Part shown: one piece after another, positions 2 through 55,933 of the stretch | How positions within the stretch are numbered: position 1 is the first letter of the stretch | Layout of the letters: every line of letters starts with the position of its first letter | DNA from: a virus | IMG/VR virus record: IMGVR_UViG_3300045988_174992 | DNA length: 64,000 nucleotides | Strand: one strand, 5' to 3' | Made by a program: the position numbers and the translations under genes | Notes under the pieces: model-generated | Told to the model about the DNA's origin: nothing | The model's input: the letters and a program-made list of their open reading frames with translations, nothing else | Database searches by the model: none

Positions 2-91
2 TCTTCTGGTGTATTGCCAAGACCAGAAGATGAAATAACTGTTGCTCCATCCACTATTGGTGACCCATTAGTAGTATCAATAGATTCATAG
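2..91 (+). CDS. C-terminal end of a CDS that starts upstream of the window (product unknown)
   Basis: Frame 2 is open from the window edge to TAG 89-91 (...STIGDPLVVSIDS*). Element E0 starts 5 nt after the stop. Confidence 0.4.
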   Translation, partial: SSGVLPRPEDEITVAPSTIGDPLVVSIDS

Positions 92-96
92 ATTCA

Positions 97-173
97 CTAG
101 GAAAGTACCTAGAATGTTTAGGAAGTGGAAAATGCTTCAGACTTAAGTCTGAAGCATTTTTTGTTTTTTTCTA
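97..173 (+). promoter_or_regulatory. Stop-proximal structured element, copy E0 (AT-drifted), containing a terminator hairpin
   Basis: P1 is CTAGG 97-101 / CCTAG 108-112. P2 is TAGGAA 119-124 / TTTCTA 168-173. GTGG lies at 125-128. P3 is 129-142 / 147-160 (14 bp) followed by a T-run. 31/38 identical to E3 over 97-134. Confidence 0.6.
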
Positions 174-204
174 GTTAACTCTTAAAAGATATTCAATTGA
201 TGAT

Positions 205-5914: not shown

Positions 5915-5919
5915 ATCAT

Positions 5920-5935
5920 ATTTTTATCTATAAAG
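5920..5935 (+). promoter_or_regulatory. Late-type motif
   Basis: ATTTTTATCTATAAAG, 15/16 identical to 39429-39444 and 20 nt before ATG 5956. Confidence 0.45.
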
Positions 5936-5955
5936 ATATCTTTAGAATAAATAAA

Positions 5956-6156
5956 ATGAAAAGTTTATTAGAATCATTAAACGATGCTTTAGTTTTTGAA
6001 GAAGAAGCTGAAGTATTTGTTGTAAAGGATAAGGATGATGGTACTATCATTACTGTTTGCGACACTGAAGCTCAAGCTAAGAAAGCTGTAGCAGATGCAG
6101 AAAATGGAAACAACTATGAAGTTGTAAAAGATAAAAAATCAAATTACGTAAAATAA
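5956..6156 (+). CDS. Small acidic hypothetical protein (66 aa)
   Basis: ORF preceded by the late-type motif at 5920-5935. Balanced, charged composition. Confidence 0.45.
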   Translation: MKSLLESLNDALVFEEEAEVFVVKDKDDGTIITVCDTEAQAKKAVADAENGNNYEVVKDKKSNYVK

Positions 6157-6160
6157 AGAT

Positions 6161-8862: not shown

Positions 8863-8896
8863 ACTTTATTCCTTGAACATAACCAAGTGATGTTCA

Positions 8897-12299: not shown

Positions 12300-12316
12300 G
12301 ATATAAAATAATATAA

Positions 12317-12356
12317 AAGAAAAGAGAACTTTCAATTGAAGGTTCTCTTTTTTGTT
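12317..12356. terminator. Bidirectional intrinsic terminator between convergent genes
   Basis: AAAGAGAAC / GTTCTCTTT stem around a palindromic loop, with T-runs on both strands. Confidence 0.7.
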
Positions 12357-12382
12357 TTTCATAGCTTAAACTTAAATTGTGT

Positions 12383-12466
12383 CAGGGACGTTGAAATTGT
12401 CTTAGCTGATAGAATATACTGAAGCATATTTTTCCGCTCCCTGTGTGACCCAGGCGCCATCCTGGA
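12383..12466 (-). promoter_or_regulatory. Stop-proximal structured element, copy E1
   Basis: On the minus strand: P1 is TCCAGG-ATGGCG-CCTGGG (12466-12449), then GTCACA. P2 5' strand is CAGGGA (12443-12438), followed by GCGG. The inner region has only weak hairpins. P2 3' strand is TCCCTG (12388-12383). Confidence 0.55.
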
Positions 12467-12470
12467 GAAT

Positions 12471-12845
12471 TTATAGACAATCTCGTAAATCATTAAAGAA
12501 TTCTGTAACAAAAATACCTGCATCATCAAGATCATCCTTAAAAGAATATATGATAGAACGATTTGTCAATGCTGGATCATGTGAAACTAGATAAATAGGA
12601 CATTCCTTAATAGGATACATTTCTACTGTTCCATCTGTAAAACATACACCATAGATTCTTTCTGACTTATCACCTAACAAATTATATAGCTTTTGCAAAT
12701 CTTCTGGTGTAGTTATCTCAAAAATATCCTTTAGCAAATCAATCTTGATAGTAGTATTACGACTATGATAACCTGTACCATACCATAAAATTGCTTGCAA
12801 TACCAATTCTAGATTGAACTTATCTAATTCTGTACAATTCTTCAT
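12471..12845 (-). CDS. Hypothetical protein (124 aa)
   Basis: Clean ORF. Element E1 starts 4 nt after its stop. Confidence 0.5.
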   Translation of the reverse strand: MKNCTELDKFNLELVLQAILWYGTGYHSRNTTIKIDLLKDIFEITTPEDLQKLYNLLGDKSERIYGVCFTDGTVEMYPIKECPIYLVSHDPALTNRSIIYSFKDDLDDAGIFVTEFFNDLRDCL

Positions 12846-12865: not shown

Positions 12866-13117
12866 TTATACAAAATAAAAATCTCTATATGTTACATCAT
12901 AAGTATTTCCATCTACCTTCAAATAGAATGACATTGAACCATCATTTACATAATCTGTATAGGTTTCACATCCTTCTAAAATACCAGTAACATCATTAGT
13001 AATGAACTCCTTGCCATTCCACTCTTCATTTACTTTCTTTATAGTAACTGCACGTCCAATGTTTGGATTTACTGCATCAGTGAAAATTTTTTCTACATTT
13101 AAAATATTCATAATCAT
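12866..13117 (-). CDS. Hypothetical protein, tandem-paralog A (83 aa), MIMN start
   Basis: Paralogous to the next gene (NPNIGRAVTIKK..W.GKEFI..DVTGILE.C.TY.D.V..G.MSFYLKV.G..YDVT.RDFYF). Early-type promoter at 13153-13180. Confidence 0.55.
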   Translation of the reverse strand: MIMNILNVEKIFTDAVNPNIGRAVTIKKVNEEWNGKEFITNDVTGILEGCETYTDYVNDGSMSFYLKVDGNTYDVTYRDFYFV

Positions 13118-13204: not shown

Positions 13205-13447
13205 TTATATAGGAAAATAGAAATCTCTATCTGTTACATCATAAATATCTCCATTTACCTTCAAGTAAAATGACATTGGCCCTTTACCAACATGATCTTT
13301 ATAGGTGTTGCATTCCTCTAAAATACCAGTAACATCTTCATTATGAATAAACTCTTTACCAAACCATCCTTCTTTTGCATTTTTAATTGTAACAGTATGA
13401 CCAATGTTTGGTTTTACTAAAATATTGAAAATTTCTGTTATATTCAT
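13205..13447 (-). CDS. Hypothetical protein, tandem-paralog B (80 aa)
   Basis: Start moved to the internal ATG (MNITEIFNILVKPNIGHTVTIKN...). This removes the overlap with 13458..14483 and matches the length of paralog A. Confidence 0.55.
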   Translation of the reverse strand: MNITEIFNILVKPNIGHTVTIKNAKEGWFGKEFIHNEDVTGILEECNTYKDHVGKGPMSFYLKVNGDIYDVTDRDFYFPI

Positions 13448-13457
13448 ATCAAAATCT

Positions 13458-14483
13458 TTAGAAAAAATTATATCCTTGAATTTCTTTATATTTGTAATGT
13501 TGTTCATCATCAGAAGCTTTATGGCCAATTTCATATAGAAATAAAGAATTTTTATCCATGGATTTCCATTTGTCAATATCAATATAGCCCAAAACTGATC
13601 CTATAAAGATTGATGGATCTTTAGTGTATTCAAGCATTTCATTTGTCCATATTGTTTCTACAATATTCATCAAATGATCTGACTTTATTTTCTTATGCAA
13701 TTCAAGATAATGTTCTTTTTCCTTCTCTCTTTCTCGATACTTCTTGACAGTAATAGTTACAAAATCATTGTAGTTCAATCTAGAATCACCAAACTTACTT
13801 AATTTATGACCATTATCAAATTCAACATCAACACACTTATACCAAGCATGTGGCAATCCTCCAATATAGTCAATATATTTTCTACCTTCATTGATATTGT
13901 AAGTGTTGATCAGATTTCCAAACACAATATCATCACAAATTGTTTGATAAGCAAAATAAATACCATTCTTTATGATAGCTTTATCATATACTTCCTTACT
14001 TGTAAGAATTCCATTTCCTCTTGGGTATATGCAAAGTGGATAAGGACAACAAGCTTCAGATAGAGAATACAAATCAGAACCATAAGTGATTTTTGGATCA
14101 GCATGATTCAATGTGAAATCATTCAAAACTCTGATATTTATATAAGTACTTGTATTAGTTCTGAATATCCAATCTGGAGAATACTTGTCTGCAATAAACC
14201 TATATGCCATCCAAGTTTTCTTAAATGTATATTGCATATCATCTTCACAGGCAAGATGCAAATACCAAACATTTTCATGATCTTTATATTGATTGAATTC
14301 AGATTTCATATATGATCCACCATCATAATACACAATATTAACATTCTCTGGGAGCTCTTTAGCCCAGGTCTCTAAAGCAAGGTCAAACTCATCTTGGAAA
14401 GTGAATCCTTTACAAATTTCAGCATTAGCTCCCATCACTAATATGAATAATTTAGGAGCATATTTTAATTGATTTTCTGTCAT
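13458..14483 (-). CDS. Putative Fringe/GT31-like glycosyltransferase-fold protein
   Basis: 341 aa. KKTWMAYRFI...DWIFRTNTSTYINIRVL, PRGNGILTSKEV and CDDIVFGNL resemble the Fringe/GT31 pattern (KT..., W..k.DDDtyv, GGaG..lS, DD..lG). The DDD position reads TNTS. Confidence 0.35.
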   Translation of the reverse strand: MTENQLKYAPKLFILVMGANAEICKGFTFQDEFDLALETWAKELPENVNIVYYDGGSYMKSEFNQYKDHENVWYLHLACEDDMQYTFKKTWMAYRFIADKYSPDWIFRTNTSTYINIRVLNDFTLNHADPKITYGSDLYSLSEACCPYPLCIYPRGNGILTSKEVYDKAIIKNGIYFAYQTICDDIVFGNLINTYNINEGRKYIDYIGGLPHAWYKCVDVEFDNGHKLSKFGDSRLNYNDFVTITVKKYREREKEKEHYLELHKKIKSDHLMNIVETIWTNEMLEYTKDPSIFIGSVLGYIDIDKWKSMDKNSLFLYEIGHKASDDEQHYKYKEIQGYNFF

Positions 14484-16622: not shown

Positions 16623-16669
16623 ATTTATTCTGTTTTTAAATTCAACTTATGAAATAATTTACAAAATAA

Positions 16670-16697
16670 ATATAGATTTTTTATATGAAATTTCAAA
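16670..16697 (-). promoter_or_regulatory. Early-type promoter motif
   Basis: TTTGAAAT-N12-ATCTATAT (1 mismatch), upstream of 15816..16622. Confidence 0.5.
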
Positions 16698-16700
16698 CTT

Positions 16701-17053
16701 TCAAGCTATTTCTTTAGCAAAAGCTATAGCCATCTTCTTACAATCATCTAATGTTTTTGCTTCTAATGGACCATTCTCTTGCTTTAGTGTTTCATATCCA
16801 ACTTTACCAGGACCAGATTTAACCCCAATCTTAAATCCATATATAGCTCGATGGCTCCATCCATACCAAGCTTGTTCCTTTTCAGAAAATCCAATTTGAT
16901 TTACCTTAGAACTTGGACTTATCTTTTCTGGTACAATACCATGCTTATTGAAAACTTCTGCAATGGAGATTGTTCATCCCCTTCAACTACAATATCATTA
17001 AATATCATAGTTGCCTTCATTTCATTTAATTTTACAAGTGTTGTAAGTTTCAT
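16701..17053 (-). pseudogene. Small gene interrupted by a -1 frame change (pseudogene, sequencing error or programmed frameshift)
   Basis: ATG at 17053 opens MKLTTLVKLNEMKATMIFNDIVVEGDEQSPLQ..., which stops at 16921-16919. The -1 frame is open from 16973 to TGA 16703-16701 and encodes ...AEVFNKHGIVPEKISPSSKVNQIGFSEKEQAWYGWSHRAIYGFKIGVKSGPGKVGYETLKQENGPLEAKTLDDCKKMAIAFAKEIA. Total length is 353 nt, not a multiple of 3. It fills an otherwise empty gap between packed genes. Confidence 0.45.
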
Positions 17054-17060
17054 GAATATT

Positions 17061-18959: not shown

Positions 18960-19574
18960 TTATCGATTCTTTTCAAACCAATCCATTGCATATTTTGCCA
19001 TTCCTTCACTGTCGCAAACATCGTCGATTTTTGGTAAATCAAAATCTGGAAATGAACCTTTGAATGTTGAAATCATCAATTGCTTATTTGCATTTCCAGA
19101 TCCTGTGTAAAACCTTTTTACTTCAGCAGGTGGTGTTACAAGAAGAGTACCAACAACAGTATGATGATGCAATCTGTCTCTTATCAGATAGTTCAATCCA
19201 GCAAGATCCATTACTGCAGCACTATGAATGGAACCATAAGATATTCCTTCCATACATATTGTTACTGAGTCAATAGTACTAGTTTTTCTGAATTGCTGTA
19301 ACAATTCTTCTATAATATTATATATTGTGTCTGCAATTGTTGACAAGTTGTGTGCTTTTGCTAGCTCACGTTCATGTGCATTATTTGTATCTTTTACATT
19401 TTCTTTTTGATATAAACAATATTCAAAAATTTCGGAATTATTTGATTGGGCATTCTTTTCTTTCTTTGTAAGCTTATCTCCTTTTATTATGAAAAATCTA
19501 CAGAAACCAGTATCAGTTCTTATTGTCATACCAGTACTGTTGATTGATGGATCAATTCCTATAAAAACATTCAT
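18960..19574 (-). CDS. RuvC-like Holliday-junction resolvase
   Basis: 204 aa. N-terminal VFIGIDPSINSTGMT provides the catalytic Asp, and CMEGISYGS provides the Glu. This is an RNase-H-fold pattern typical of phage RuvC-like resolvases. Confidence 0.6.
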   Translation of the reverse strand: MNVFIGIDPSINSTGMTIRTDTGFCRFFIIKGDKLTKKEKNAQSNNSEIFEYCLYQKENVKDTNNAHERELAKAHNLSTIADTIYNIIEELLQQFRKTSTIDSVTICMEGISYGSIHSAAVMDLAGLNYLIRDRLHHHTVVGTLLVTPPAEVKRFYTGSGNANKQLMISTFKGSFPDFDLPKIDDVCDSEGMAKYAMDWFEKNR

Positions 19575-20037: not shown

Positions 20038-20109
20038 ATTATTTCTTATTTAAATTGTTCATTTATATGATAGAAATTAGTTTAGAAAATTTCAAAAAAT
20101 ATAATAAAA

Positions 20110-20218
20110 GTCACACAGGGACGTTTACAATATAGCAGGTTATAAATTATACTTGTAAACAACTATCCGCTCCCTGTGTGACCCAGGCGCTTAACAGGAG
20201 AACCCTGTGTATACCTAG
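20110..20218 (-). promoter_or_regulatory. Stop-proximal structured element, copy E2
   Basis: On the minus strand: P1 is CTAGG (20218-20214) / CCTGG (20187-20183), with an inserted hairpin ACAGG-GUUCU-CCUGU. P2 is a 12-bp perfect helix, 20182-20171 / 20121-20110. GCGG lies at 20170-20167. P3 is GTTTACAA / TTGTAAAC (20160-20153 / 20130-20123). A U-tract follows. Confidence 0.65.
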
Positions 20219-20224
20219 TGAATA

Positions 20225-21100: not shown

Positions 21101-24100
21101 TTATTCGGTAGATTGTGTTTTACTATTTAATGGATTATCTCCTGCTGGTGTTTCATCTCTTTCAGCACTATTTTGACCATTACCTGTAGAAGTATCACTA
21201 TATTGCATATTTGGATTTTCTGTATCTTGAACTTGCTTTACATTTACTTCTACTGGTTTGTTCAACAATGTACTGATCTTAGAAATAGAATCCTTTATAG
21301 CAGCATGACGTTTCTTTTGCATCTCATCAGCTTGATTTATAGTCTTAGCAGATATCTTAAGCTCTCTTACAAGCTTATCCAATACAACAGCTAGCTTATT
21401 TGCTAAAGTATTTGTTAATTTGTCAAGACCACCTAATCTTCTAGCCATTTGATCTAAAGCAGTTATCAAGTTAGTCATAGTTTGTGCTTTTGCCACATCT
21501 AAAGTATTTATAGATCTAGTAAACTTAGATACATCTTGAGTTTCTGTTCTGAACTGTGATGTATTCTTTACTTTACTTATTTCTACATTTATACCTTTTA
21601 CGGCATTTATTACATTGTCATATTTAGAAGTATCCTTTGGAGCTTTATCATAAACATCAAACAACATCTTCATTCCATTATAATAATCCACCATCATAGG
21701 TCCAAACATCAATATGTTCTTAGATAAACCTTTAGAATCCAAATTAACAAATGTCTCTGATATTCCTCTGACCATCTCTTTAGGTATGTCAGAGAGTGAT
21801 ATCACTATGCTTGCAGCATTGGCTTTAGTCTCTTTCTCTAACTTCTGTTTGAATTTAATTATCTTCTTATAAGATTTTATAGCATCATTCAGTATATCAG
21901 TATATATATCAAACTGGTTTTGTATAGAAGAAAATTCATCATCTTTCAAATTAGGCATCTTCTGAATAGCTCTAGACATGCTAAATGGAAGTTGTGTTAA
22001 AACAGCATCTACTATCTTATTTAATCCATGTATATCATCTTCCTTTCCAAATTTAGATTTTAATTTAAATATGTCACTATAAGAAGATACTATGTTATTC
22101 AAAAGCTCAGTATAAGAACTATAGCTAGAAGATATCTTCTCAATGTTATCTTTTGCATCTTCAAAGAATGGTTTGAGTTCTTCTTGATTCTCATCCATTG
22201 TTGCTTTCATTACAGCATTAGGAACAGAACTTATCATTAAAGAGATAATAGCTGAAAGATTATTCATCTTAGGTTTATCCAACTTTAAGTCAAGTATAGA
22301 TTTTATAGATTTTATATTTTCTGCAATTAATTTATCTAAACCACCTAAACAGTTCTTTACCTTAGCAAATGGACTAGTACTTCCATCATGATTAAGCCAT
22401 CCAGAATCTTCAAACCAAACTTTATTATGTGGATCATCATATACAGCCATTACAGCTGCTGGTATGCAAGACATCAAAGCTGTTACGTTATTATATACAG
22501 TTCCTCCAAGTCTTAATGATTCTATTGGTATTTTTTCATATTGACCTTTAAGAAGCTTTCCATTTGAATCATACTTTTGTATTCTTAAATCAGCCACATC
22601 TTTCACACCTTTAGCGGTTTCAGACATTAATGATCCAATTCCCTTCAATGCTGTAACTATTTGCGAAAATCTAGAACAAGTTCCGTCTTTAAACACAATA
22701 GATTGATCTTCAAACATCCACTCAGCATTAGGATTGTCTTTAAGAGCCAGAATAGAATTTCCAAGACATGACACTATACGTTGAGTATTTTCTGCAGCAT
22801 TCTTGAAATCCTTAAAACCAAGTGGTCTTGTTCCTTTCTGTTTTCCATCAGCTCCATATATAGGTATTCTTAAGTCAGCCATATCTTTGACACCTTTAGC
22901 TATATTAGATATCATTTTTCCTAAGCCTGTACAACCAGTAACAATACGACCAAATGGAGTTTTTACTCCTATCATATTTCCAAGCCAACCACTATCAAAC
23001 ATTCCTTCAGGAGCTTTATTATATAAATCTAATAATGCATATCCTAAGGTTGTAACAATTTTAGATATATTTTCAGCTGCATTAGTAAAATCAGGTTCTG
23101 TTAAATTACGATATCCTACTTTGTCTGTTCCTTTATAAATAGGTATCTTTAACTCTGCCATATCTTTAACACCTTCTGCTATCTTAGCAATCATCTTACC
23201 CATTCCAGTACATGATTTCACTACTCTAGTGAATGGTGTGTCCATACCTAAGAAGTCTCCAAGCATTCCATTAGAGAATATGGTAGGATTTTCTTTGTAT
23301 ATATCTAAGATAGTTCCACCTATTATAGTAACAATAGTTTTTATATTCTCTGCAGCATCTGTGAAATCAGCATCTGTCAAATTTCTTCTTCTTATTATCT
23401 TTCCTCCTTCTCCATATATAGGTATAGAAAGATTAGCATAGTCTTTAATTCCTTCTGATAACATAGACATCATGTGTCCTAAACTAGCAATAGTTCCAGA
23501 TGCAGCAACTATCATCATATCAAGCAATGGATTCATAAATGGTTTGAGTTCCCAAACTATGCTTAGCATGGCTTTAATATCATCTGTTATAATAGAAGTG
23601 TCAACTCTTTCAAGCTTAGAAGCCATATCCATTACCTTTATTATCTCTTGCATGGCTTTTCCTGCTAATAAGACGCATCCAATGATTCCAGCTAAAGCGG
23701 CTTCACCAGCCGCTAAAGCCAAACCTCCTAAACCACCAGTTCCAGCTGATAGATATCCAAGACCTATTACTCCACCAGCAAATGCCAATAGTACTGCTAT
23801 TGTAATTCCTATAGTACCCAATAGTCCACCCCAGTCACTTCCTATATTATCTCGGAGTTTTACTATCTCCATCATTGCATATCCTGACAATCCAATACAT
23901 ACAATAACTCCTAATAAAGCTAAAGCCCCCGTTTTAAGGTTTCTTTTTACCTTGCTGAGCATTCCTAGTATGAACGACATTCCACCTACTAGCAAGAGTT
24001 CTAAACCTAAGAACTTTAGTATGTTGATATCTAAGTCTGGGTAGTTCATCAATAACATTCCACCGGTAAGCAATGCTATAGAAGAGACTAATACTAAAGC

Positions 24101-33100: not shown

Positions 33101-35707
33101 TTATTTGTTTCTTATGATGAATATTGTATTAACATCATTAGAGAGAGAACCGAGACCAGCAAAATCAGTTGTATTACCAGACCAAACATAGCTAAAGTTA
33201 GAGTCACCACCACGTCCGGTGAATTTAGGACTATAATTAGCATTGTAAAGAATACCTTGGGTATATTGCTTGAATTTTTCTTCAACTTTTCTGTTTACTA
33301 TATCATCCATCTGATCTATACTTATGAAATCATTTCTTGTAGAAGCATCACCATCATATATGAAATACAAAGTATTTGGGTCTACTTGTTTGATCTTTAT
33401 ATAATCAGCATATTCACCTTTCCACATATAAGTAGGACCAGTACCATTCAATATAGAAGTAACTATTGGTTTCTTATCTATGAATGCAATACCATCTAAT
33501 GTTGGTGCTCTCTTTATTTCAAAAGCATTTGATCGATCTATATTGTTTGTTCCCCAACCAACTGAGAATAATGTATTATCTGATGATTTATTCCAGTTAC
33601 CAGAAGCATGCTCACCAGGATTTCTTGTTTCAGTACCTAATCCTTCAGCATGAGAATAACTTGCTCCAGTATGGCAATAAGTACCCCATCCTTCTGCATG
33701 ACAGAAATAAGCATAAGCATTATTTGGAGAACCATAAGTATCACCGTAATTATTGAAATATTCTGCACCAGTAAACATTGGCTTTAATACTTCGGGATTT
33801 TCTGGATCATTTATCAATGGATAGAAATTTTTTCTACCAGCAGAATTTCTCATAACATAAGTAACTGTTGCTACCTGTGCTAGTTGTCTTCTAGTAATAC
33901 AGTAAGATGATTCATTGTTTGCAACAGTAGAATAAGGATAGTCTTCTACATAATCCCAAGTGTATATTCCTTTATAAAGATAGCTTATTCCGTTCTCTCT
34001 TACATCTAAAGCATTTGATTCTCCATTAACATCACCATTACCTATCATAAATATGGTGTTTTGCTTTTCTAACTTAGGTGTATCAGTATAAGAACGTGTA
34101 TATCTACCAAAACCAACTTCATAAGGAGATTGTAGTGTTATATTAGAACCATGAGCAAACCCATAAGTTGCATTTTCTTCAACTCTGATGTTATAACCAG
34201 AAACATTGACAAAATCTATTCCTTTTTGATTATTTTCAATGTCTCCACTGTTTATTTCTAATAAACTACCTCTTAAAACAGAATAATTTGCATAACTATT
34301 TATAAATTTTCCATTTACTTCAGAGTATATACCCTTTACACTATTTAAAGTACCATAGATTACTACATTTTCACTGTTTGTATATACAGTATTTTCATTA
34401 CCACCAACATGAACATATTTTGTATCACCTATACTCTTTCCTATTCTATTTGCATATCCTTCTATATGGCTTGTATAGGCATAAGTTAGATGGCCAACAC
34501 CTTCTATGTGAGATTCTTTACCAAAATTATTTGAATCTTTTCCTTCTACATGTGAATTTATAGCATAATTCTTATTATTCAATCCTTCTATATGTGAATA
34601 GTGAGAATTAGTTATTATACCTATATTTCCACCATTTACATTATTATCACCTTCTACATGAGAAGATTTTGAAAATGATATTCTATTGTTTGATCCTTCA
34701 ATATGTGAAGAATCAGACAATGCATTTATTGTATTAGTGTTTCCTTCAGCATGTGCATAAGGAGAATATACTTCAGTTTCAGCCCCTTCAGTATGAGAAT
34801 CCTCTCCTGCAGCTATAGTATGATTTCCTTCTGCATGAGAATTCTTACTTCTAGCTTCTGTATTGTAACCTTCTGAATGAGAATTTTCTCCTGATGCTTT
34901 TGTTATATTGCCTTCTGCATGGGTATTAGTAGATGTTGCTTGAGATTTGTAACCTTCAGCATGGCCATTTTCACCAACAACTAAAGTATTGTTACCTTCT
35001 GAATGGGCATTCTTTGCTCTGACTATTGTATTCAAACCTTCAGCATGTCCATTTTCACCAGTATTTTCTACTATTGTAGTATTTCCTTCAGCATGAGCAT
35101 TCTTTGCACTTATAGTTGTATTGTAACCTTCAGCATGGCTATTTTCAGCTTCAGGTTCTACTTTAGTTATATTACCTTCTGAATGTGATCCTTTGGCTTT
35201 TGCATAAGTATTGTTTCCTTCAGCATGAGAATCTTCTCCTATTGCATAAGTAATGAATCCTTCTGTATGAGAATTTCTGCCTTGTGCTTCAGATTTATCA
35301 CCTTCAGCATGAGAGTTCATTCCTCTAGAATAAGAAGAATTACCTTCAGCATGAGAATTCTCTCCTAATGAATAAGAAGAATTGCCTTCAACATGTCCAT
35401 TAACTCCATTTACAAATGTTTTGTATCCTTCTGCATGAGAATAATTTGATTTAGCAATAGTGCTATATCCTTCTGCATGGGAATATGCACCAAGTGCTAT
35501 ATTATTCTGAAGATCATTGAATATTTCACCATACGATAATGTACCTGGATATACATTACCAAATGGCATACCTTGGTGCCATATAGTACGATGGTTTACA
35601 TCAAATATCAATGAATCCCAATAAGAATATATCATCTTATCAGGAACAAAGCTATCATTTTTATAATCTGTACCGTGTATGTATGTGTAAAAAAGCTTGT
35701 TTGCCAT
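33101..35707 (-). CDS. Tail fibre / spike protein with about 25-30 tandem 14-residue SHAEG repeats
   Basis: 868 aa. Residues about 75-440 form a continuous xxSHAEGxxTxAxG repeat (NSHAEGY.., NAHAEGN.., SSHIEGS..). This periodicity is typical of beta-roll/beta-helix heads such as YadA-like heads. Two further HAEG copies lie near the C-terminal third. Confidence 0.6.
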   Translation of the reverse strand: MANKLFYTYIHGTDYKNDSFVPDKMIYSYWDSLIFDVNHRTIWHQGMPFGNVYPGTLSYGEIFNDLQNNIALGAYSHAEGYSTIAKSNYSHAEGYKTFVNGVNGHVEGNSSYSLGENSHAEGNSSYSRGMNSHAEGDKSEAQGRNSHTEGFITYAIGEDSHAEGNNTYAKAKGSHSEGNITKVEPEAENSHAEGYNTTISAKNAHAEGNTTIVENTGENGHAEGLNTIVRAKNAHSEGNNTLVVGENGHAEGYKSQATSTNTHAEGNITKASGENSHSEGYNTEARSKNSHAEGNHTIAAGEDSHTEGAETEVYSPYAHAEGNTNTINALSDSSHIEGSNNRISFSKSSHVEGDNNVNGGNIGIITNSHYSHIEGLNNKNYAINSHVEGKDSNNFGKESHIEGVGHLTYAYTSHIEGYANRIGKSIGDTKYVHVGGNENTVYTNSENVVIYGTLNSVKGIYSEVNGKFINSYANYSVLRGSLLEINSGDIENNQKGIDFVNVSGYNIRVEENATYGFAHGSNITLQSPYEVGFGRYTRSYTDTPKLEKQNTIFMIGNGDVNGESNALDVRENGISYLYKGIYTWDYVEDYPYSTVANNESSYCITRRQLAQVATVTYVMRNSAGRKNFYPLINDPENPEVLKPMFTGAEYFNNYGDTYGSPNNAYAYFCHAEGWGTYCHTGASYSHAEGLGTETRNPGEHASGNWNKSSDNTLFSVGWGTNNIDRSNAFEIKRAPTLDGIAFIDKKPIVTSILNGTGPTYMWKGEYADYIKIKQVDPNTLYFIYDGDASTRNDFISIDQMDDIVNRKVEEKFKQYTQGILYNANYSPKFTGRGGDSNFSYVWSGNTTDFAGLGSLSNDVNTIFIIRNK
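34390..35490 (-). repeat. Coding tandem array of 42-nt (14-aa) SHAEG repeats
   Basis: The repeated GCATG(A/G)GA... / SHAEG codon blocks are visible throughout. Coordinates are approximate. Confidence 0.65.
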
Positions 35708-39370: not shown

Positions 39371-39389
39371 TATTTGTTTGACATTATAA

Positions 39390-39417
39390 ATATAGAATAT
39401 ATAAAAAGAATTTCAAA
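39390..39417 (-). promoter_or_regulatory. Early-type promoter motif
   Basis: Exact match, 19 nt upstream of ATG 39370. Confidence 0.55.
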
Positions 39418-39428
39418 TTAATTTTGCA

Positions 39429-39444
39429 ATTTTTATATATAAAG
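39429..39444 (+). promoter_or_regulatory. Late-type motif
   Basis: ATTTTTATATATAAAG, 24 nt before ATG 39469. Confidence 0.45.
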
Positions 39445-42400: not shown

Positions 42401-43428
42401 TGAGTTGTACTCATAATGATTACTGGTATAGCTTTACTATTGCTCCAACATCTTTGAATATATCTAATACAAACAGAACTTGGCAAGTAAGCTTTACCCA
42501 AGCAATTTCAGGCAAGAATATTTCATTAACATTTGTACAACATTGCTATCAATTCTCTTTAGATAAGACTTCTATAAACATTACTCCAAATGTTGAAGTT
42601 GAAATAAATGTAACATCTACAAAGAGTGGAAACTTCTTTGGTTTCACTTGGGATGCATTACCGAATTGGTTGATGGTATATAGAACATCTGATACTAAGC
42701 TTACATTCAAATGTATTGAGATAAATGATTCTACAAAAACAAGATCGTGTACAATAAGATTTACCCAATATGAATCTGGTATATCTACAACTCTTACAAT
42801 ATCTGAAGAATCTTGGAGAAATCCAGAACTTGATGAAAGTACAGTAAATTTATATTATAAAGGAGCAAAATCAGTAAAGGAGTTGTATTCTGATCAAGCA
42901 GGTATTGGATTACCAATAACAATAAGGCAAAGTGATGGTACTCTTAATTCAACAAAGATAAAAATAACTTCAAGAAACATATCTGATTCTAGATATACTA
43001 TAGATATTGTATCTTTAGTAGATTTAGAAGGAACTATTCCATTATTTGGAAGATATTCATTATCTAACAAAAACCAATATCTTGGAGAAATCTATTGCAT
43101 TATGCATGCTTATCAATTCAGTTGTTCTTCTGACAATACTTCTGAAATAGTTTGGACTTTAAGTCCTAAAGCAAATGAACTATGGTCTATGTATTATGTT
43201 ACATCAATAATTGATGGTGAATTTGCAGATTATGAAATTTCTGAAGCCAATGGTAATTTTACTTGCTATCATAGTGGAGTTAACATTACTATACTTCCAA
43301 AATTCACTAACTACAGTAATGAAAGAAAAAATTGGTCCTTGAAATTAAAACAAAATAAGACTAAGAAAGAAATATTTGTCAAAGTACAACAATTAGGTGC
43401 TAATGAATATGAAGAGGTGTATATATAA
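39469..43428 (+). CDS. Giant fibre/appendage-like structural protein (1319 aa from ATG 39469) with BACON-like modules
   Basis: The ORF track starts at TTG 39424. The first ATG (MAIYVKK) at 39469 lies 24 nt after the late-type motif. Recurrent module ends: VWQQGG, YDVTQNGS, ELTQTEHSG, KVQQLGANE. Element E3 follows the stop. Confidence 0.5.
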   Translation: MAIYVKKTGNQDIGAIKLVDSKTDKLKDINAVFWKNMMIWPRDSKYLFWSSNNKNHDFISIDSAFDRNGIHVSAASHVVTIYVRSCVKYWHGRYPFKVVPYQNWVTAPNIVYPIGWNIKTATKHEYDALFDLNISGNVSTSSSRTTYVSLWQIDSKDEHIDTSASKYSGKQIVIKIVQDKDEEDPNAQPSYANAIITWYKDETFSDEVKEYGTESNPYVDVNGKSISLYCNITGTVKMMSGNTARCFYGDHYGDVITINELNIDKNAMSLESSEYLGDGNWRINLKMKSNVPTSANYTNVIRDLTLSSSRVDYTGDIVTMTWKVFNEANTLTRYSNVGFLLGRTYTSTTKVWQQGGYASNQVTNVTCSTWVSKEVAKWISISNPQINSATSSYYAKVTVNPQTTTEKMYIENISTSYDDDIIPATDTLFQIMFMIFKNTGYYAGRKGIINVTCVSDTKSVELTQTEHSGTSFNKITDRDIDKKKISIAGIVPNSYYSNMITSITNLRYDYNYLMWLADVSVTRNPKKVLNHELSVNSYPKAVSSKSQYLEITWSIITGEVNSSPRYGKIKFSIPDYHCEDYYDVTQNGSTDAQGAKFDKDYLNNSKLYNISDNIVSSSTTSDPNTNPNSPGIIKLTDNFYTGTIKINENTKHNNTVAYIKPTEITDWSVSDFDNYNNAAFYIRIKGKNVYIGIDRNVKIKLEITGIGSKEDTILQEKAPSVDSNTLANVTDLDVSSIKISGEATTNKLPYLITNEMYCVPIILNKNAVPTRYDYAVVVGSKEYPGSFDYGDYGDINLTPEDSTEYSIPNYDNMYTAVTSWWRRQGEEKTRTVILSVDGITQSITNTWTGIKYQGDQTYRSNLSEDYSLTLSDYNQQWISLNQNNLISSSNSTSSTRRIGLTDTLYLDDLKQKNLKLSLKQEPRGTSTNFLFSSSLEYGTIKYLNATDSASFMIYSLDDDLMKPLDISWTPTEFNNMILSCTHNDYWYSFTIAPTSLNISNTNRTWQVSFTQAISGKNISLTFVQHCYQFSLDKTSINITPNVEVEINVTSTKSGNFFGFTWDALPNWLMVYRTSDTKLTFKCIEINDSTKTRSCTIRFTQYESGISTTLTISEESWRNPELDESTVNLYYKGAKSVKELYSDQAGIGLPITIRQSDGTLNSTKIKITSRNISDSRYTIDIVSLVDLEGTIPLFGRYSLSNKNQYLGEIYCIMHAYQFSCSSDNTSEIVWTLSPKANELWSMYYVTSIIDGEFADYEISEANGNFTCYHSGVNITILPKFTNYSNERKNWSLKLKQNKTKKEIFVKVQQLGANEYEEVYI

Positions 43429-43439
43429 ATAAGAAAGTC

Positions 43440-43524
43440 CCTAGGAAAGCGCCTGGGACGTTCAGGAAGCGGAAAATGGTCGAGAGATATAATTTATCAG
43501 CTCGACCATTTTTAATTGTTCCTG
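43440..43524 (+). promoter_or_regulatory. Stop-proximal structured element, copy E3, containing a terminator hairpin
   Basis: P1 is CCTAGG 43440-43445 / CCTGGG 43452-43457 (one G.U pair). P2 is CAGGAA 43463-43468 / TTCCTG 43519-43524. GCGG lies at 43469-43472. P3 is AAAATGGTCGAG 43473-43484 / CTCGACCATTTT 43501-43512. Confidence 0.65.
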
Positions 43525-43537
43525 GTGATGTTTTTAT

Positions 43538-45521: not shown

Positions 45522-45540
45522 TAATATTTTAACAATCAAA

Positions 45541-45568
45541 ATATAGAACAACCTTTATAAATTTCAAA
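45541..45568 (-). promoter_or_regulatory. Early-type promoter motif
   Basis: Exact match, 19 nt upstream of ATG 45521. Confidence 0.55.
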
Positions 45569-45584
45569 GAAATTTTATAATATT

Positions 45585-47795: not shown

Positions 47796-47827
47796 TTTAA
47801 ATTATTAATATTTTATTGACATGTATA

Positions 47828-47855
47828 ATATAGAAACAATCTAAAAAATTTCAAA
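47828..47855 (-). promoter_or_regulatory. Early-type promoter motif
   Basis: Exact match, upstream of 47484..47795. Confidence 0.55.
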
Positions 47856-47864
47856 TAAAATTGA

Positions 47865-48260
47865 TTAAAGTGAACAAAATAAATCAATATTAAATGATTC
47901 AACTTTCTTAGATCTTGTAAAGAGAACTTCAAACATTGTATATTCTGTAGGGCGATCTTCAAACATAATGTAATCTGCAACATATACATAGTTCTTCTTT
48001 CCTTTTGGCATGATTTCTACCTTTTCTACTTTGTTATCAATAAATGGATGAAGAACCTTAACGCGAACTGAAGCACCAGTAGGAATATGTTTAAATACAG
48101 CAACTTCATTTTGATAAGTATCAAGCTTAAACTCATTTACTTTGATTGAAGTTGTATAAAATGTATTGTCAATATCAAAGTGTTTCTTGATATAAGACTT
48201 ACCATTAGAAACTGCTTTAACCAACTCGCTGAAAGAAATATTTGTTGTATTCATAATCAT
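47865..48260 (-). CDS. Hypothetical protein (131 aa), MIMN start
   Basis: Its upstream region is near-identical over about 50 nt to that of 47484..47795. Confidence 0.5.
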   Translation of the reverse strand: MIMNTTNISFSELVKAVSNGKSYIKKHFDIDNTFYTTSIKVNEFKLDTYQNEVAVFKHIPTGASVRVKVLHPFIDNKVEKVEIMPKGKKNYVYVADYIMFEDRPTEYTMFEVLFTRSKKVESFNIDLFCSL

Positions 48261-48298
48261 AATAATTTTAAATGTTATTTATTTATTTGACATGTATA

Positions 48299-48326
48299 AT
48301 ATAGAAACAAACTAAAAAATTTCAAA
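48299..48326 (-). promoter_or_regulatory. Early-type promoter motif
   Basis: Exact match, 38 nt upstream of ATG 48260. Confidence 0.55.
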
Positions 48327-48336
48327 TAAAATGTGA

Positions 48337-53278: not shown

Positions 53279-53466
53279 TAAAAAGATTTAAAATTTAAAG
53301 GGTTAATAAATAATTTAAGTACAGCATTAACTTTAGTTCTTGAATAGAACTGAAAGTGATATTCATTAATTACTTGTACATATTTAATATAGTATTTGAT
53401 TATATGAAAGTTCAGTAATATTATGTTAATGATTGTTAAATCAACTAAGACAAATTAAGAGACAAG

Positions 53467-55843: not shown

Positions 55844-55881
55844 ATTACTCTTTATTTTATTTGTTAATTAATACAAATATA

Positions 55882-55909
55882 ATATAGAACATTCGTAAAT
55901 TATTTCAAA
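55882..55909 (-). promoter_or_regulatory. Early-type promoter motif
   Basis: Exact match, 38 nt upstream of the exonuclease ATG 55843. Confidence 0.55.
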
Positions 55910-55933
55910 TATTTATTCTAATCTCTTAATATG

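What the first reader, a model, noticed from the sequence alone, without database searches (positions are those of the whole stretch)
43440..43524. Four-copy GC-rich structured element placed right after stop codons (E0-E3): a clamp helix enclosing a copy-specific hairpin
Four intergenic sites share one architecture: E0 97-173 (+), E1 12383-12466 (-), E2 20110-20218 (-) and E3 43440-43524 (+). Each starts 4-11 nt after the stop codon of the upstream gene, in that gene's sense orientation.

Order of parts:
1. Hairpin P1 of 5-6 bp with a 6-nt loop. In E2 the loop carries an extra inserted hairpin.
2. A 6-7 nt joiner.
3. The 5' strand of helix P2.
4. Invariant GYGG followed by A-rich sequence.
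5. An inner hairpin P3 whose sequence is unrelated between copies. It is a 12-14 bp terminator-like stem in E0 and E3, 8 bp in E2, and degenerate in E1.
6. The 3' strand of P2.

P2 carries two fully compensatory changes. Base pair 1 is C-G in E1-E3 and U-A in E0. Base pair 5 is G-C in E1/E2 and A-U in E0/E3. P1 base pair 2 is U-A, U.G or C-G depending on the copy. The core GCGCCTGGG-N6-CAGGRAGCGG forms the only GC-rich islands I saw in intergenic DNA of this AT-rich window.

Conserved flanks with a variable inner hairpin argue for a functional RNA or protein-recognition module rather than a plain terminator or a recently copied repeat. Possible roles are 3'-end stabiliser, processing site, antitermination or termination control, or a binding site for a phage factor. 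I cannot match it to any RNA family I know from memory.
Basis: partly seen in the sequence, partly recalled or inferred. Interest (0 to 1): 0.85.

Follow-up and report, generated by a model that had tools for sequence, protein, structure and literature searches.

The report
Conserved gene-end hairpin module, gut phage
The four GC-rich sites are real copies of a roughly 100-base structured repeat, found about 14 times per genome in one lineage of large human-gut phages, that most likely ends and protects transcripts at gene ends; it is a new family of a familiar kind of element, and its invariant core is still unexplained.

Summary
Exactly four copies occur in the window, and none in shuffles. 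No Rfam family matches.

The family is much larger than four. More than 150 copies, about 120 of them distinct, sit at about 14 fixed sites per genome. They are confined to one clade of AT-rich, 167-294 kb human-gut myovirus-like phages.

Copies align almost without gaps over about 100 nt. So the "copy-specific" inner hairpin is in fact homologous.

The clamp helix P2 and the inner hairpin P3 show real compensatory changes. P1 is missing in about a third of copies.

Most copies directly follow a stop codon in sense orientation, and many carry a U-rich tail. Three site classes are followed at once by a promoter-like motif.

Best reading: a nested intrinsic terminator and 3'-end hairpin module. 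Recombination between copies keeps them alike, as with PeSL cassettes and the conserved terminator motifs of jumbo phages.

Three points remain unexplained:
- the invariant 25-nt GC-rich core;
- three or four site classes that are antisense or do not follow a stop codon;
- an alternative core hairpin.

Interest is moderate.

The parts
43433..43536 (+). E3, whole element (104-position model). It begins 5 nt after the TAA stop (43426-43428) of the 1334-aa ORF and lies between convergent genes.
   Evidence: Covariance-model match of 81.9 bits; sequence; coordinates.
43440..43457 (+). E3 P1 hairpin: CCTAGG / loop AAAGCG / CCTGGG, with one U.G pair.
   Evidence: Predicted fold. Family pair counts: pair 10-23 is C-G 74, U.G 34, U-A 3.
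43449..43472 (+). E3 invariant GC-rich core, GCGCCTGGG-ACGTT-CAGGAA-GCGG. It can also fold on itself as an alternative 6-bp hairpin.
   Evidence: Pattern match with 0 expected by chance. RNAalifold picks a core hairpin, in a register shifted at its two basal pairs from the one counted; 97% of cells are paired but almost invariant.
43463..43468 (+). E3 P2 5' strand (CAGGAA).
   Evidence: Fold. P2 covariation: pair 35-87 is GC 78, GU 18, AU 17, UA 3.
43473..43513 (+). E3 P3: intrinsic-terminator hairpin AAAATGGTCGAG...CTCGACCATTTTT with its U-tract. The loop GATATAATTTATCAG is homologous to the inner loop of the other copies.
43519..43525 (+). E3 P2 3' strand (TTCCTGG). It is also complementary to the far 5' segment CTAGGAA.
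89..186 (+). E0, an AT-drifted copy: TAG stop 89-91, ATTCACTAGGAAA 92-104, core GTACCTAGA-ATGTT-TAGGAA-GTGG 105-128, terminator hairpin 129-162, 3' strand TTTCTAG 168-174.
   Evidence: Covariance model 34.5 bits, E = 1e-6; fold z = -5.7; terminator scan. Orthologous canonical copies are in L118 and L068.
12370..12473 (-). E1: TAA stop 12471-12473, ATTCTCCAGGATG 12458-12470, core 12434-12457, majority-type inner region 12389-12433, TCCCTG 12383-12388. The outer half of P2 and the U-tail are missing.
   Evidence: Covariance model 101.3 bits.
12315..12353 (.). Separate plain bidirectional terminator hairpin, 30 nt downstream of E1, between the convergent genes.
20101..20223 (-). E2, with a 5' extension: ATTCACTAGG 20214-20223, inserted hairpin 20191-20213, core 20167-20190, P3 20123-20160, TCCCTGTGTGAC 20110-20121, U-rich tail 20101-20109.
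   Evidence: Covariance model 98 bits; fold z = -4.4; eight orthologous copies.
20067..20096 (-). Promoter-like motif TTTGAAAT-N12-TTCTATCAT directly after E2, giving a terminator-promoter arrangement.
   Evidence: (repeat families D6 and D8).

Best explanation
E0-E3 belong to a lineage-specific family of roughly 100-nt composite stem-loop modules. The family marks gene and operon 3' ends in a clade of uncultivated, AT-rich human-gut jumbo myovirus-like phages, with about 14 fixed sites per genome.

**Proposed RNA structure (sense strand).**
- In about two thirds of copies a short GC-rich hairpin, P1, sits directly after the stop codon.
- P1 abuts a long interrupted helix made of the P2 clamp, a short A/U helix, and P3 with an AU-rich loop.
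- A U-rich tail follows.

**Proposed mechanism (inferred, not shown).** The module is a nested intrinsic terminator.
1. P3 plus its U-tract terminates first. This hairpin is strong in E0 and E3 and weak in the majority type.
2. Transcripts that read through complete the much more stable P2-closed hairpin and meet a second U-tract.
3. The finished structure also shields the upstream mRNA from 3' exonucleases.

**Maintenance.** The copies are kept similar by recombination or gene conversion among themselves. They often lie at the edges of variable gene segments.

**Open point.** The invariant 25-nt half, GCGCCUGGG-N5-CAG-NNN-GCGG, is more conserved than pairing requires. It probably carries an extra function: factor binding or an alternative hairpin. 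That function is not identified here.
For: **Position**
- 103 of 132 distinct contexts have a same-strand ORF ending about 0-12 nt upstream.
- 49 contexts are followed by a convergent gene.
- Three site classes (E2 site, U8, U11; 29 of 32 distinct copies) are followed within 6-22 nt by the phage's promoter-like motif.

**Terminator features**
- E0 and E3 hold 12-14 bp hairpins with U5-7 tracts.
- The mean T count in the 10 nt after P2 is 6.5-8 in six site classes, against about 3.5 expected from base composition.

**Structure**
- P2 is predicted in about 105 of 117 distinct copies.
- Pair 35-87 occurs as GC, GU, AU and UA, including transversion-compensated copies L292 and L310.
- 46 cells show a change on both sides, against 16.2 in shuffles (0 of 500 shuffles reach the observed value).
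- P3 has at least six unrelated but complementary stems. One position shows a C-G / U.G / U-A series across the orthologous copies E0, L118 and L068.
- G.U exceeds A.C among non-Watson-Crick events in P1 and P2: 16 versus 7, my tally. This favours RNA of the sense strand.

**Persistence**
- Every orthologous site examined is filled.

**Precedent**
- Jumbo phage terminators share conserved sequence motifs (PMC11512511).
- PeSL terminator/promoter cassettes are known in T4-like phages (PMC2839356, PMC4122927).
Against: - No transcript data are available.
- E1 lacks the outer half of P2 and a U-tail, and relies on a separate plain terminator 30 nt downstream.
- In the majority type P2 closes a loop of about 48 nt, which is atypical for an intrinsic terminator.
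- Three or four of about 14 site classes (U1, U10, U14, U12) are antisense or do not follow a same-strand stop. Yet U1 copies are among the best-scoring copies.
- Other gene ends in the window use plain terminators without the core. Termination alone therefore does not explain the invariant GC-rich block.
- The G.U over A.C excess is only marginal (one-sided binomial p about 0.05).
- Covariation statistics come from closely related copies that also recombine with one another.
Confidence: 0.5

Rival explanations
1. Conditional terminator or factor-binding switch. The four complementary segments are M1, site 2 (GCGCCUGGG), M2 (CAGGGA) and M3. They can pair as 1:2 + 3:4, which gives P1 plus the P2 clamp, or as 2:3, the invariant core hairpin. 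A phage or host RNA-binding protein, or a ribosome sitting on the adjacent stop codon and covering M1, would decide which fold forms. That choice would set whether transcription reads through.
For: - The core can form a 6-bp hairpin (pairs 18-39, 19-38, 20-37, 21-33, 22-32, 23-31). RNAalifold selects a core hairpin, in a register shifted at its two basal pairs.
- Its loop (the J segment) is the most variable part of the core.
- Its bulge, positions 34-36, is where the core varies in the copies with variant cores: at the E2 site, sampled without bias (GGA, TGA, TTG), and at other sites (GAA, GTG, GTA).
- Pair 19-38 is never broken: GC 111, GU 3, AU 2.
- E0, compared with its orthologues L118 and L068, changed all four segments in concert (C/G to U/A).
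- M1 lies 0-10 nt from the stop codon, inside a terminating ribosome's footprint.
- M1 is dispensable, as expected for protein-dependent antitermination.
Against: - In E0 and E3 the real terminator (P3) does not overlap M2, so 2:3 pairing cannot control it.
- In the majority type the free loop TCACA offers a toehold for M3 to displace the weak core hairpin.
- E1 and E3 face convergent genes, so read-through has no obvious target.
- Single changes in the core break pairing about as often as they keep it, roughly 7 versus 6 event types.
- E0's concerted change is compatible with general GC-to-AT drift (my estimate, p about 0.2).
- No candidate binding protein was found.
Confidence: 0.15
2. The element is chiefly a selfish or structural palindromic repeat and recombination module, in the manner of REP/BIME or PeSL. 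It persists because copies recombine and mark tolerated insertion points. Any terminator activity is incidental.
For: - The element is built from two complementary words (CACNCAGGRA and its complement) arranged in different orders. M1, inner and M3 versions combine as a mosaic across sites.
- Alternative versions occur at the same orthologous site.
- The ends resemble inverted repeats: ATTCAC...GTGAAT.
- Both orientations occur.
- Indel or replacement breakpoints lie within a few nt of the element's 3' end at sites U1 and U16.
- A second repeat, F, clusters beside it.
Against: - No empty site, no target-site duplication and no transposase were seen. All sites are stably occupied across 8-16 genomes.
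- There are only about 14 copies per genome.
- Placement against stop codons is strongly biased, and U-tails sit on one strand.
- Compensatory changes in P2 and P3 show selection on pairing.
Confidence: 0.2
3. The element acts at the DNA level. It would be a binding array for a phage DNA-binding protein, with four half-sites in alternating orientation, or a cruciform-forming palindrome used in recombination or replication.
For: - There are four CAC-CAGG-like half-sites in alternating orientation.
- The core is invariant regardless of its pairing partners.
- Antisense site classes are as well conserved as sense ones.
- A RuvC-like resolvase gene lies in the window at 18960-19574.
Against: - Orientation follows the local gene strand over short distances: E0 +, E1 -, E2 -, E3 +.
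- G.U is tolerated more than A.C.
- E0 changed its half-sites while E1-E3 in the same genome did not, which a shared protein reader would not allow.
- The element is adjacent to stop codons and to U-tracts.
Confidence: 0.08
4. RNase III-type (or other endonuclease) processing site that trims polycistronic RNA and leaves a protective 3' hairpin, like the intergenic RNase III sites of phage T7.
For: - The helix is long and interrupted, 25-35 bp in all. It reaches 18 continuous bp in L009/L310-type copies.
- About 14 homologous intergenic copies lie directly after stop codons, including copies inside operons in antisense orientation, where the helix still forms.
Against: - No cleavage data are available.
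- RNase III needs no invariant sequence, so the core stays unexplained.
- Many copies have terminator U-tracts that make processing unnecessary.
Confidence: 0.07

Closest known systems
PeSL cassettes (promoter-early stem-loop) of T4-like phages (Arbiol et al. 2010, PMC2839356; Comeau et al. 2014, PMC4122927)
   Same: Both are repeated, roughly 100-bp conserved intergenic cassettes in large myoviruses. Both contain a terminator stem-loop, lie next to sigma-70-like promoters, and sit at the edges of variable gene segments. Copies recombine.
   Different: In E the promoter is not part of the conserved unit and follows it in only 3-4 of about 14 site classes. E has an invariant 25-nt GC-rich core, a nested clamp helix and constant length. 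Sequence relatedness to PeSLs was not tested by alignment. Mini-circles and recombination activity were not tested.
Conserved terminator motifs of jumbo phages phiKZ and 201phi2-1 (PMC11512511)
   Same: Many transcription-unit ends in one large phage genome share sequence motifs that fold into strong stem-loops. Combinations of motifs occur.
   Different: Those motifs were defined from mapped 3' ends in Pseudomonas phages that encode their own RNA polymerases. E has no transcript data and comes from an unrelated gut phage lineage. Only a minority of this phage's terminators carry it (4 of about 12 terminator-like sites in the window, my count from the listing).
REP/BIME extragenic palindromes of enterobacteria (from my own knowledge)
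   Same: Both are GC-richer imperfect palindromes just downstream of stop codons, in either orientation. Both form mosaic arrangements of two complementary words, stabilise upstream mRNA, and can affect translation termination when within about 15 nt of the stop.
   Different: REPs are 20-40 nt with hundreds of copies, are bacterial, and are linked to RAYT transposases. E is about 100 nt with about 14 copies, is phage-borne, and has no transposase in view.
RNase III processing sites of phage T7 (from my own knowledge)
   Same: Both comprise about ten mutually similar intergenic hairpins with internal loops, placed after stop codons. They give upstream messages a stable 3' end.
   Different: Cleavage is not shown for E. 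E usually carries U-tracts typical of terminators, and it has an invariant sequence block.
Classical 1:2 / 2:3 / 3:4 attenuators and protein-dependent antiterminators (trp leader; RAT/BglG-SacY)
   Same: Four mutually complementary segments allow exclusive folds, and a weak, sequence-invariant hairpin overlaps the 5' strand of a terminator-like helix.
   Different: E lies at the 3' ends of genes, not in leaders. In E0 and E3 the true terminator is outside the switchable region. No regulator is known. E has no sequence similarity to RAT and lacks the dual hexaloop of ANTAR targets.

Membership tests
Any Rfam 15 family | Covariance-model score at or above the family's gathering threshold. | tested here: not met
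   No match in the whole window at gathering thresholds. The best sub-threshold hits on E3 and E2 have E-values of 0.5-1.3 and are far below their thresholds.
Intrinsic (Rho-independent) terminator | A G+C-containing stem-loop followed immediately by a U-tract on the transcribed strand. | tested here: met
   Met for E0 and E3 (P3: 12-14 bp plus U5-7). Met for E2 and most family members through P2 plus a U-rich tail, although the enclosed loop is about 48 nt. Not met for E1, which has no U-tail and a separate terminator at 12315-12353.
Intrinsic (Rho-independent) terminator | Transcripts end there. | not testable with these tools
   No RNA 3'-end data are available.
PeSL cassette | [quoted passage not shown] | tested here: inconclusive
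   A stem-loop is always present. A promoter-like motif follows within 6-22 nt in only three site classes (29 of 32 distinct copies) and in none of the other classes with convergent, antisense or other contexts. It lies outside the conserved 104 positions.
PeSL cassette | Flanks variable genes and mediates their exchange by recombination between copies. | tested here: inconclusive
   Breakpoints of a roughly 470-nt insertion (U1) and of non-homologous replacements (U16) lie within a few nt of the element's 3' end. No second copy was seen at the far end of the insertion.
MITE / Correia-like element | Terminal inverted repeats, target-site duplication, and presence/absence polymorphism. | tested here: not met
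   The ends ATTCAC...GTGAAT are inverted-repeat-like. However, no duplication flanks the copies (inspection only), and every orthologous site examined is occupied: 15 of 15 at E1, 9 of 9 plus 8 of 8 at E2, 13 of 13 at E3.
REP/BIME | Short extragenic palindromes in high copy number with an associated RAYT transposase. | tested here: not met
   The element is about 100 nt long, with about 14 copies per 170-295 kb genome. PHROG and Pfam scans of a subset of the window's proteins found no transposase; the rest of the genome was not scanned.
Small protein-coding gene or read-through extension | An open reading frame conserved across copies. | tested here: not met
   Across the 48 aligned copies, the three frames are open in 0, 11 and 5 copies.
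ANTAR dual-hexaloop target | Two tandem hairpins with hexaloops (A at position 1, G at position 4), the second overlapping a terminator. | tested here: not met
   The P1 loops (AAAGCG, AUGGCG, AAUGUG) fit A1/G4. But there is only one such hairpin, it is absent in about 35% of copies, and it is interrupted in E2. The ANTAR consensus is recalled from memory.
Integron attC / DGR target end | attC: conserved R/L core sites plus an integrase. DGR: template/variable repeat pairs plus a reverse transcriptase. | tested here: not met
   No repeats join the coding regions upstream of the four copies. There is no GTTRRRY core. No integrase or reverse transcriptase was found among the window proteins scanned.

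The most novel reading that the evidence does not exclude
The element is a translation- or factor-sensing conditional terminator placed at the 3' end of genes. The invariant core hairpin (site 2 paired with M2) competes with P1 and the P2 clamp. A ribosome on the adjacent stop codon, or a dedicated phage RNA-binding protein that recognises GCGCCUGGG...CAG-NNN-GCGG, sets the level of read-through or the fate of the mRNA at about 14 operon ends. That would make it a phage-wide post-transcriptional regulon built on one RNA module.
Probability: 0.15. Interest if true: 0.75.

Novelty: new variant of a known kind. Interest (0 to 1): 0.5.

Why it matters
Large uncultivated gut phages are almost unannotated: most proteins in this window match nothing. 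A recognisable, conserved RNA/DNA module therefore has practical uses:
- It marks transcription-unit ends and gives handles for annotating operons.
- It marks the lineage itself. The core pattern retrieves only this clade from viral, metagenome and genome collections.
- It could supply terminator parts for engineering low-GC Firmicutes.

If the invariant core proves to be a binding site or a switch, it would reveal a genome-wide regulatory layer in a phage group with no experimental system. Even as a plain terminator family, it extends the PeSL and phiKZ observation that big phages standardise and recombine their gene-end signals.

Tried and rejected
**Known RNA families.** Rfam at gathering and E-value thresholds gave nothing. 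No tRNA or tmRNA was found.

**Known phages.** There is no near or distant DNA match among 50,697 GenBank phage records.

**Coding hypothesis.** I tested for a mini-ORF behind the SD-like GGGAG, or a read-through extension. Stop codons occur in every frame in most copies.

**Mobility.** Flank-pair searches for empty sites gave only artefacts caused by the F repeat. Targeted checks of the E0-E3 sites, and an unbiased scan of the E2 site, found every orthologue filled.

**Host copies.** The bacterial genome scan hit only GC-rich chance matches and two 'Romboutsia' MAGs. Five of the loci from those MAGs align to the window over 6-7 kb, so they are this phage.

**Structure prediction from the alignment.** RNAalifold returned only the invariant core hairpin, with zero covariation.

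**Other motifs considered and dropped on inspection of the sequence.**
- K-turn, sigma-54 promoter, an internal sigma-70 promoter, and self-cleaving ribozyme cores.
- A pseudoknot of GCGG with the P1 loop. No complementarity exists, and the 3' partner region (positions 82-85) varies freely: AACG, CCGC, CCAC, CUAC.

**Partner proteins.** PHROG, Pfam and PDB sequence searches of window proteins found no RNA-binding, antiterminator, nuclease or transposase candidate. They found only baseplate, helicase, a RuvC-like resolvase, glycosyltransferase, a protease and similar.
Full report
**1. Is it there?**

The four sites read as described. The degenerate core GYRCCTRGR-N5-YAGGRAGYGG matches exactly these four places in the 64-kb window. 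It matches none of 100 dinucleotide-preserving shuffles.

I built a covariance model from relatives and ran it over the window with all filters off. It returns the same four sites and nothing else above noise: E1 101.3 bits, E2 98, E3 81.9, E0 34.5.

Energies are far below shuffles for E0, E2 and E3 (z = -5.7, -4.4, -6.0). E1 is not (z = -1.6).

The window is 30.5% GC. No Rfam family matches at gathering thresholds, and relaxed E-value scans of E3 and E2 add nothing.

**2. The family is much larger, and confined to one phage lineage.**

The exact core pattern retrieved 48 further copies from IMG/VR. All lie in eight contigs of 167-294 kb from one sample; four other hits were GC-rich chance matches. 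A looser pattern found the same contigs only.

In metagenome assemblies it found many human-gut contigs of up to 292 kb.

In 185,579 bacterial and archaeal genomes it hit only chance matches and two 'uncultured Romboutsia' MAGs. Five of the loci from those MAGs align to this window over 6-7 kb, so they are the phage itself. This is either a host hint or mis-binning.

No GenBank phage resembles the region or the element.

The few recognisable proteins are a baseplate wedge, a helicase, a clamp-loader-like protein and a RuvC-like resolvase. They point to a large myovirus-like phage. The giant ORFs match nothing.

**3. Anatomy from about 120 distinct copies.**

Copies align almost without gaps over 104 positions. 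The layout, by model position:

| Positions | Segment | Notes |
|---|---|---|
| 4-16 | M1 | (R)TTC-N-C plus a hypervariable stretch; it supplies CYAGG, the P1 5' strand, in about 65% of copies |
| 17-25 | site 2 | GCGCCTGGG |
| 26-30 | J | TCACA in most copies; ACGTT, GCGGT, ATTGA, ATGGC or ATGTT in others |
| 31-36 | M2 | CAGGGA |
| 37-40 | GCGG | |
| 41-44 | A-run | |
| about 45-77 | P3 | Variable stems around a shared AU-rich loop, AGTATAWTYTATMA (positions 54-67) |
| 78-81 | T-run | |
| 82-85 | Variable | |
| 86-97 | M3 | TCCCTGTGTGA or TTCCTRGTGAA |
| after 97 | T-rich tail | Usually present |

So the inner part is homologous between copies, not copy-specific. E1 carries the commonest version.

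No reading frame is conserved.

**4. Which helices are real?**

*P2.* This is the best supported helix. Counts are from 127 distinct rows; 14 of the 130 aligned rows are reverse-strand matches of the palindromic helix.
- 88% of P2 cells are paired.
- Pair 35-87 appears as GC 78, GU 18, AU 17 and UA 3.
- For the whole P1 + P2 + A/U-helix structure, 46 cells carry changes on both sides, against 16.2 +/- 3.3 in shuffles (0 of 500).
- The UA cases (L292 and L310: CAGGTR with TACCTG) are transversion pairs that AT-drift cannot produce.

*P3.* It has at least six unrelated yet complementary stems. At the E0 site one pair runs C-G (E0), U.G (L118) and U-A (L068).

*P1.* It forms in about two thirds of copies. 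Pair 10-23 is C-G 74, U.G 34 and U-A 3, but three of the five P1 pairs are broken in 35% of distinct copies.

*Minimum-energy folds.* P1 + P2 appears in 73 of 117 distinct copies, and P2 in about 105 of 117.

*Strand.* Counting one event per pair type and site class, G.U outnumbers A.C by 16 to 7 in P1 and P2 (my tally). This is marginal support for selection on sense-strand RNA.

**5. An alternative fold.**

M1 resembles J + M2, and site 2 resembles M3. Other pairings are therefore possible.
- M1:M3 gives 9-11 bp in the E0, E3 and U14 classes. It is the minimum-energy fold of E0.
- 'Type-b' M1 (TTCCCCTGT) can pair with M2.
- Site 2 can pair with M2 as a 6-bp core hairpin. RNAalifold picks a core hairpin, shifted in register at its two basal pairs.

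In the core hairpin, J is the loop and positions 34-36 form a bulge. These bulge positions are where the core varies in the variant copies found: GGA, TGA and TTG at the E2 site when it is sampled without reference to the core, and GAA, GTG and GTA at other sites. Pair 19-38 is never broken.

But the hairpin is nearly invariant. Single changes break it about as often as they keep it. E0's concerted four-segment change is compatible with its general GC-to-AT drift. I treat this fold as possible, not shown.

**6. Context.**

Of 132 distinct contexts:
- 103 have a same-strand ORF ending about 0-12 nt before the element;
- 49 face a convergent gene;
- 46 precede a co-directional gene.

In E0, E1 and E2 the conserved ATTC starts 0-1 nt after the stop codon.

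Flank clustering gives about 14 site classes. Three or four of them (U1, U10, U14, U12) are antisense to the local genes or lie in a divergent spacer. In U1 and U10 the opposite end (GTGAAT, read as ATTCAC on the other strand) abuts a stop codon instead. U1 copies are among the best-scoring copies.

Six classes have 6.5-8 T in the 10 nt after P2.

In three classes, including the E2 site, the phage's promoter-like motif TTTGAAAT-N12-TTCTAT starts 6-22 nt after the element.

Other gene ends in the window have ordinary terminators without the core. E1 is followed by one of these (12315-12353).

**7. Stability and exchange.**

Every orthologous site I could examine is occupied, and I saw no target duplications. 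So the element is not an active MITE in these genomes.

M1, inner and M3 versions combine as a mosaic, and different versions occupy the same site in different genomes. This indicates gene conversion among copies.

At U1 a 470-nt insertion carrying a small gene begins a few nt after the element. At U16 the upstream 2 kb is 94-95% identical between genomes, while the downstream sequence is unrelated or displaced by about 1.2 kb.

A second repeat, F, often adjoins E.

**8. Interpretation.**

The features that point to a gene-end RNA module with terminator and 3'-protective function:
- placement after stop codons;
- strand-specific U-tails;
- bona fide terminators inside E0 and E3;
- promoters directly downstream at three sites;
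- selection on P2 and P3 pairing.

The module is built as a nested pair: P3 with its U-tract, then the P2-closed hairpin with a second U-tract.

The closest known things are PeSL terminator/promoter cassettes of T4-like phages and the conserved terminator motifs of phiKZ-like jumbo phages. REP/BIME elements and T7 RNase III sites are functional analogues recalled from my own knowledge.

Termination does not explain three things: the invariant 25-nt core, the well-kept antisense copies, and E1. The rival explanations remain open: a switch or binding site, a recombination module, a DNA-level site, or a processing site.

**9. Verdict.**

It is a new family, a new variant of a known kind. It is of moderate interest, mainly as an annotation handle and as a candidate regulatory RNA in an unstudied gut phage lineage.

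Noticed in passing
window 53332-53370 (+); F-tail-like piece at 8870-8896; L056 1251-1493: There is a second dispersed repeat, 'F'. It is a 39-nt unit, ACTTTAGTTCTTGAACAGAACTGAAAGWGATGTTCATTA, with the hairpin AGTTCT/AGAACT. It forms tandem arrays of up to 6.3 copies at 99% identity in related genomes. It often abuts E at the 3' end or, inverted, at the 5' end. It is present next to E3 in most relatives but absent in the window. Arrays of 36-40-nt units after a terminator recall type III antitoxin RNAs; this was not tested.
   Followed up: partly
window 39381-39430, 45532-45581, 47819-47868, 48290-48332, 55873-55922, 20067-20096 (all on the - strand): A conserved promoter-like motif, TTTGAAAT-N12-TTCTATAT (sigma-70-like: TTGAAA, 17 nt, TATATT), recurs upstream of many genes. 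In three site classes it directly follows E.
   Followed up: partly
L009 8641-9107 versus L177; L247 versus L105 and L089, downstream of the element: Related genomes differ by a roughly 470-nt insertion carrying a gene, and by wholly non-homologous segments. These differences begin within a few nucleotides of the element's 3' end, while the other flank stays 90-95% identical.
   Followed up: partly
loci L166, L171, L177, L178, L180, L183-L187, L189, L193-L195, L202, L207, L208: Contigs of this phage are binned into two independent 'uncultured Romboutsia sp.' MAGs (CALFLM01 and CALESE01). This is either a hint that the host is a low-GC Peptostreptococcaceae member or a composition-driven mis-binning.
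   Followed up: partly
window 12866-13117 and 13205-13582 (-): Two neighbouring small ORFs are tandem paralogues, 73-82% identical over about 240 nt (repeat families D5 and D7). They lie just upstream of the gene that precedes E1.
   Followed up: no
window 33642-35502 (-) and 22571-23491 (-): The 868-aa ORF contains a 42-nt (14-residue) periodic repeat. The 2172-aa ORF contains four repeats of about 280 nt. These suggest fibre- or domain-repeat virion proteins. Neither ORF has a Pfam match, and the 2172-aa ORF has no PHROG match either.
   Followed up: no
window 16623-17060 and 5915-6160: Two long 'intergenic' gaps have coding-like composition (0.27-0.29 GC). They probably hold genes missed by the simple ORF list, for example a disrupted or alternatively started ORF on the - strand at 16.6-17.1 kb.
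   Followed up: no
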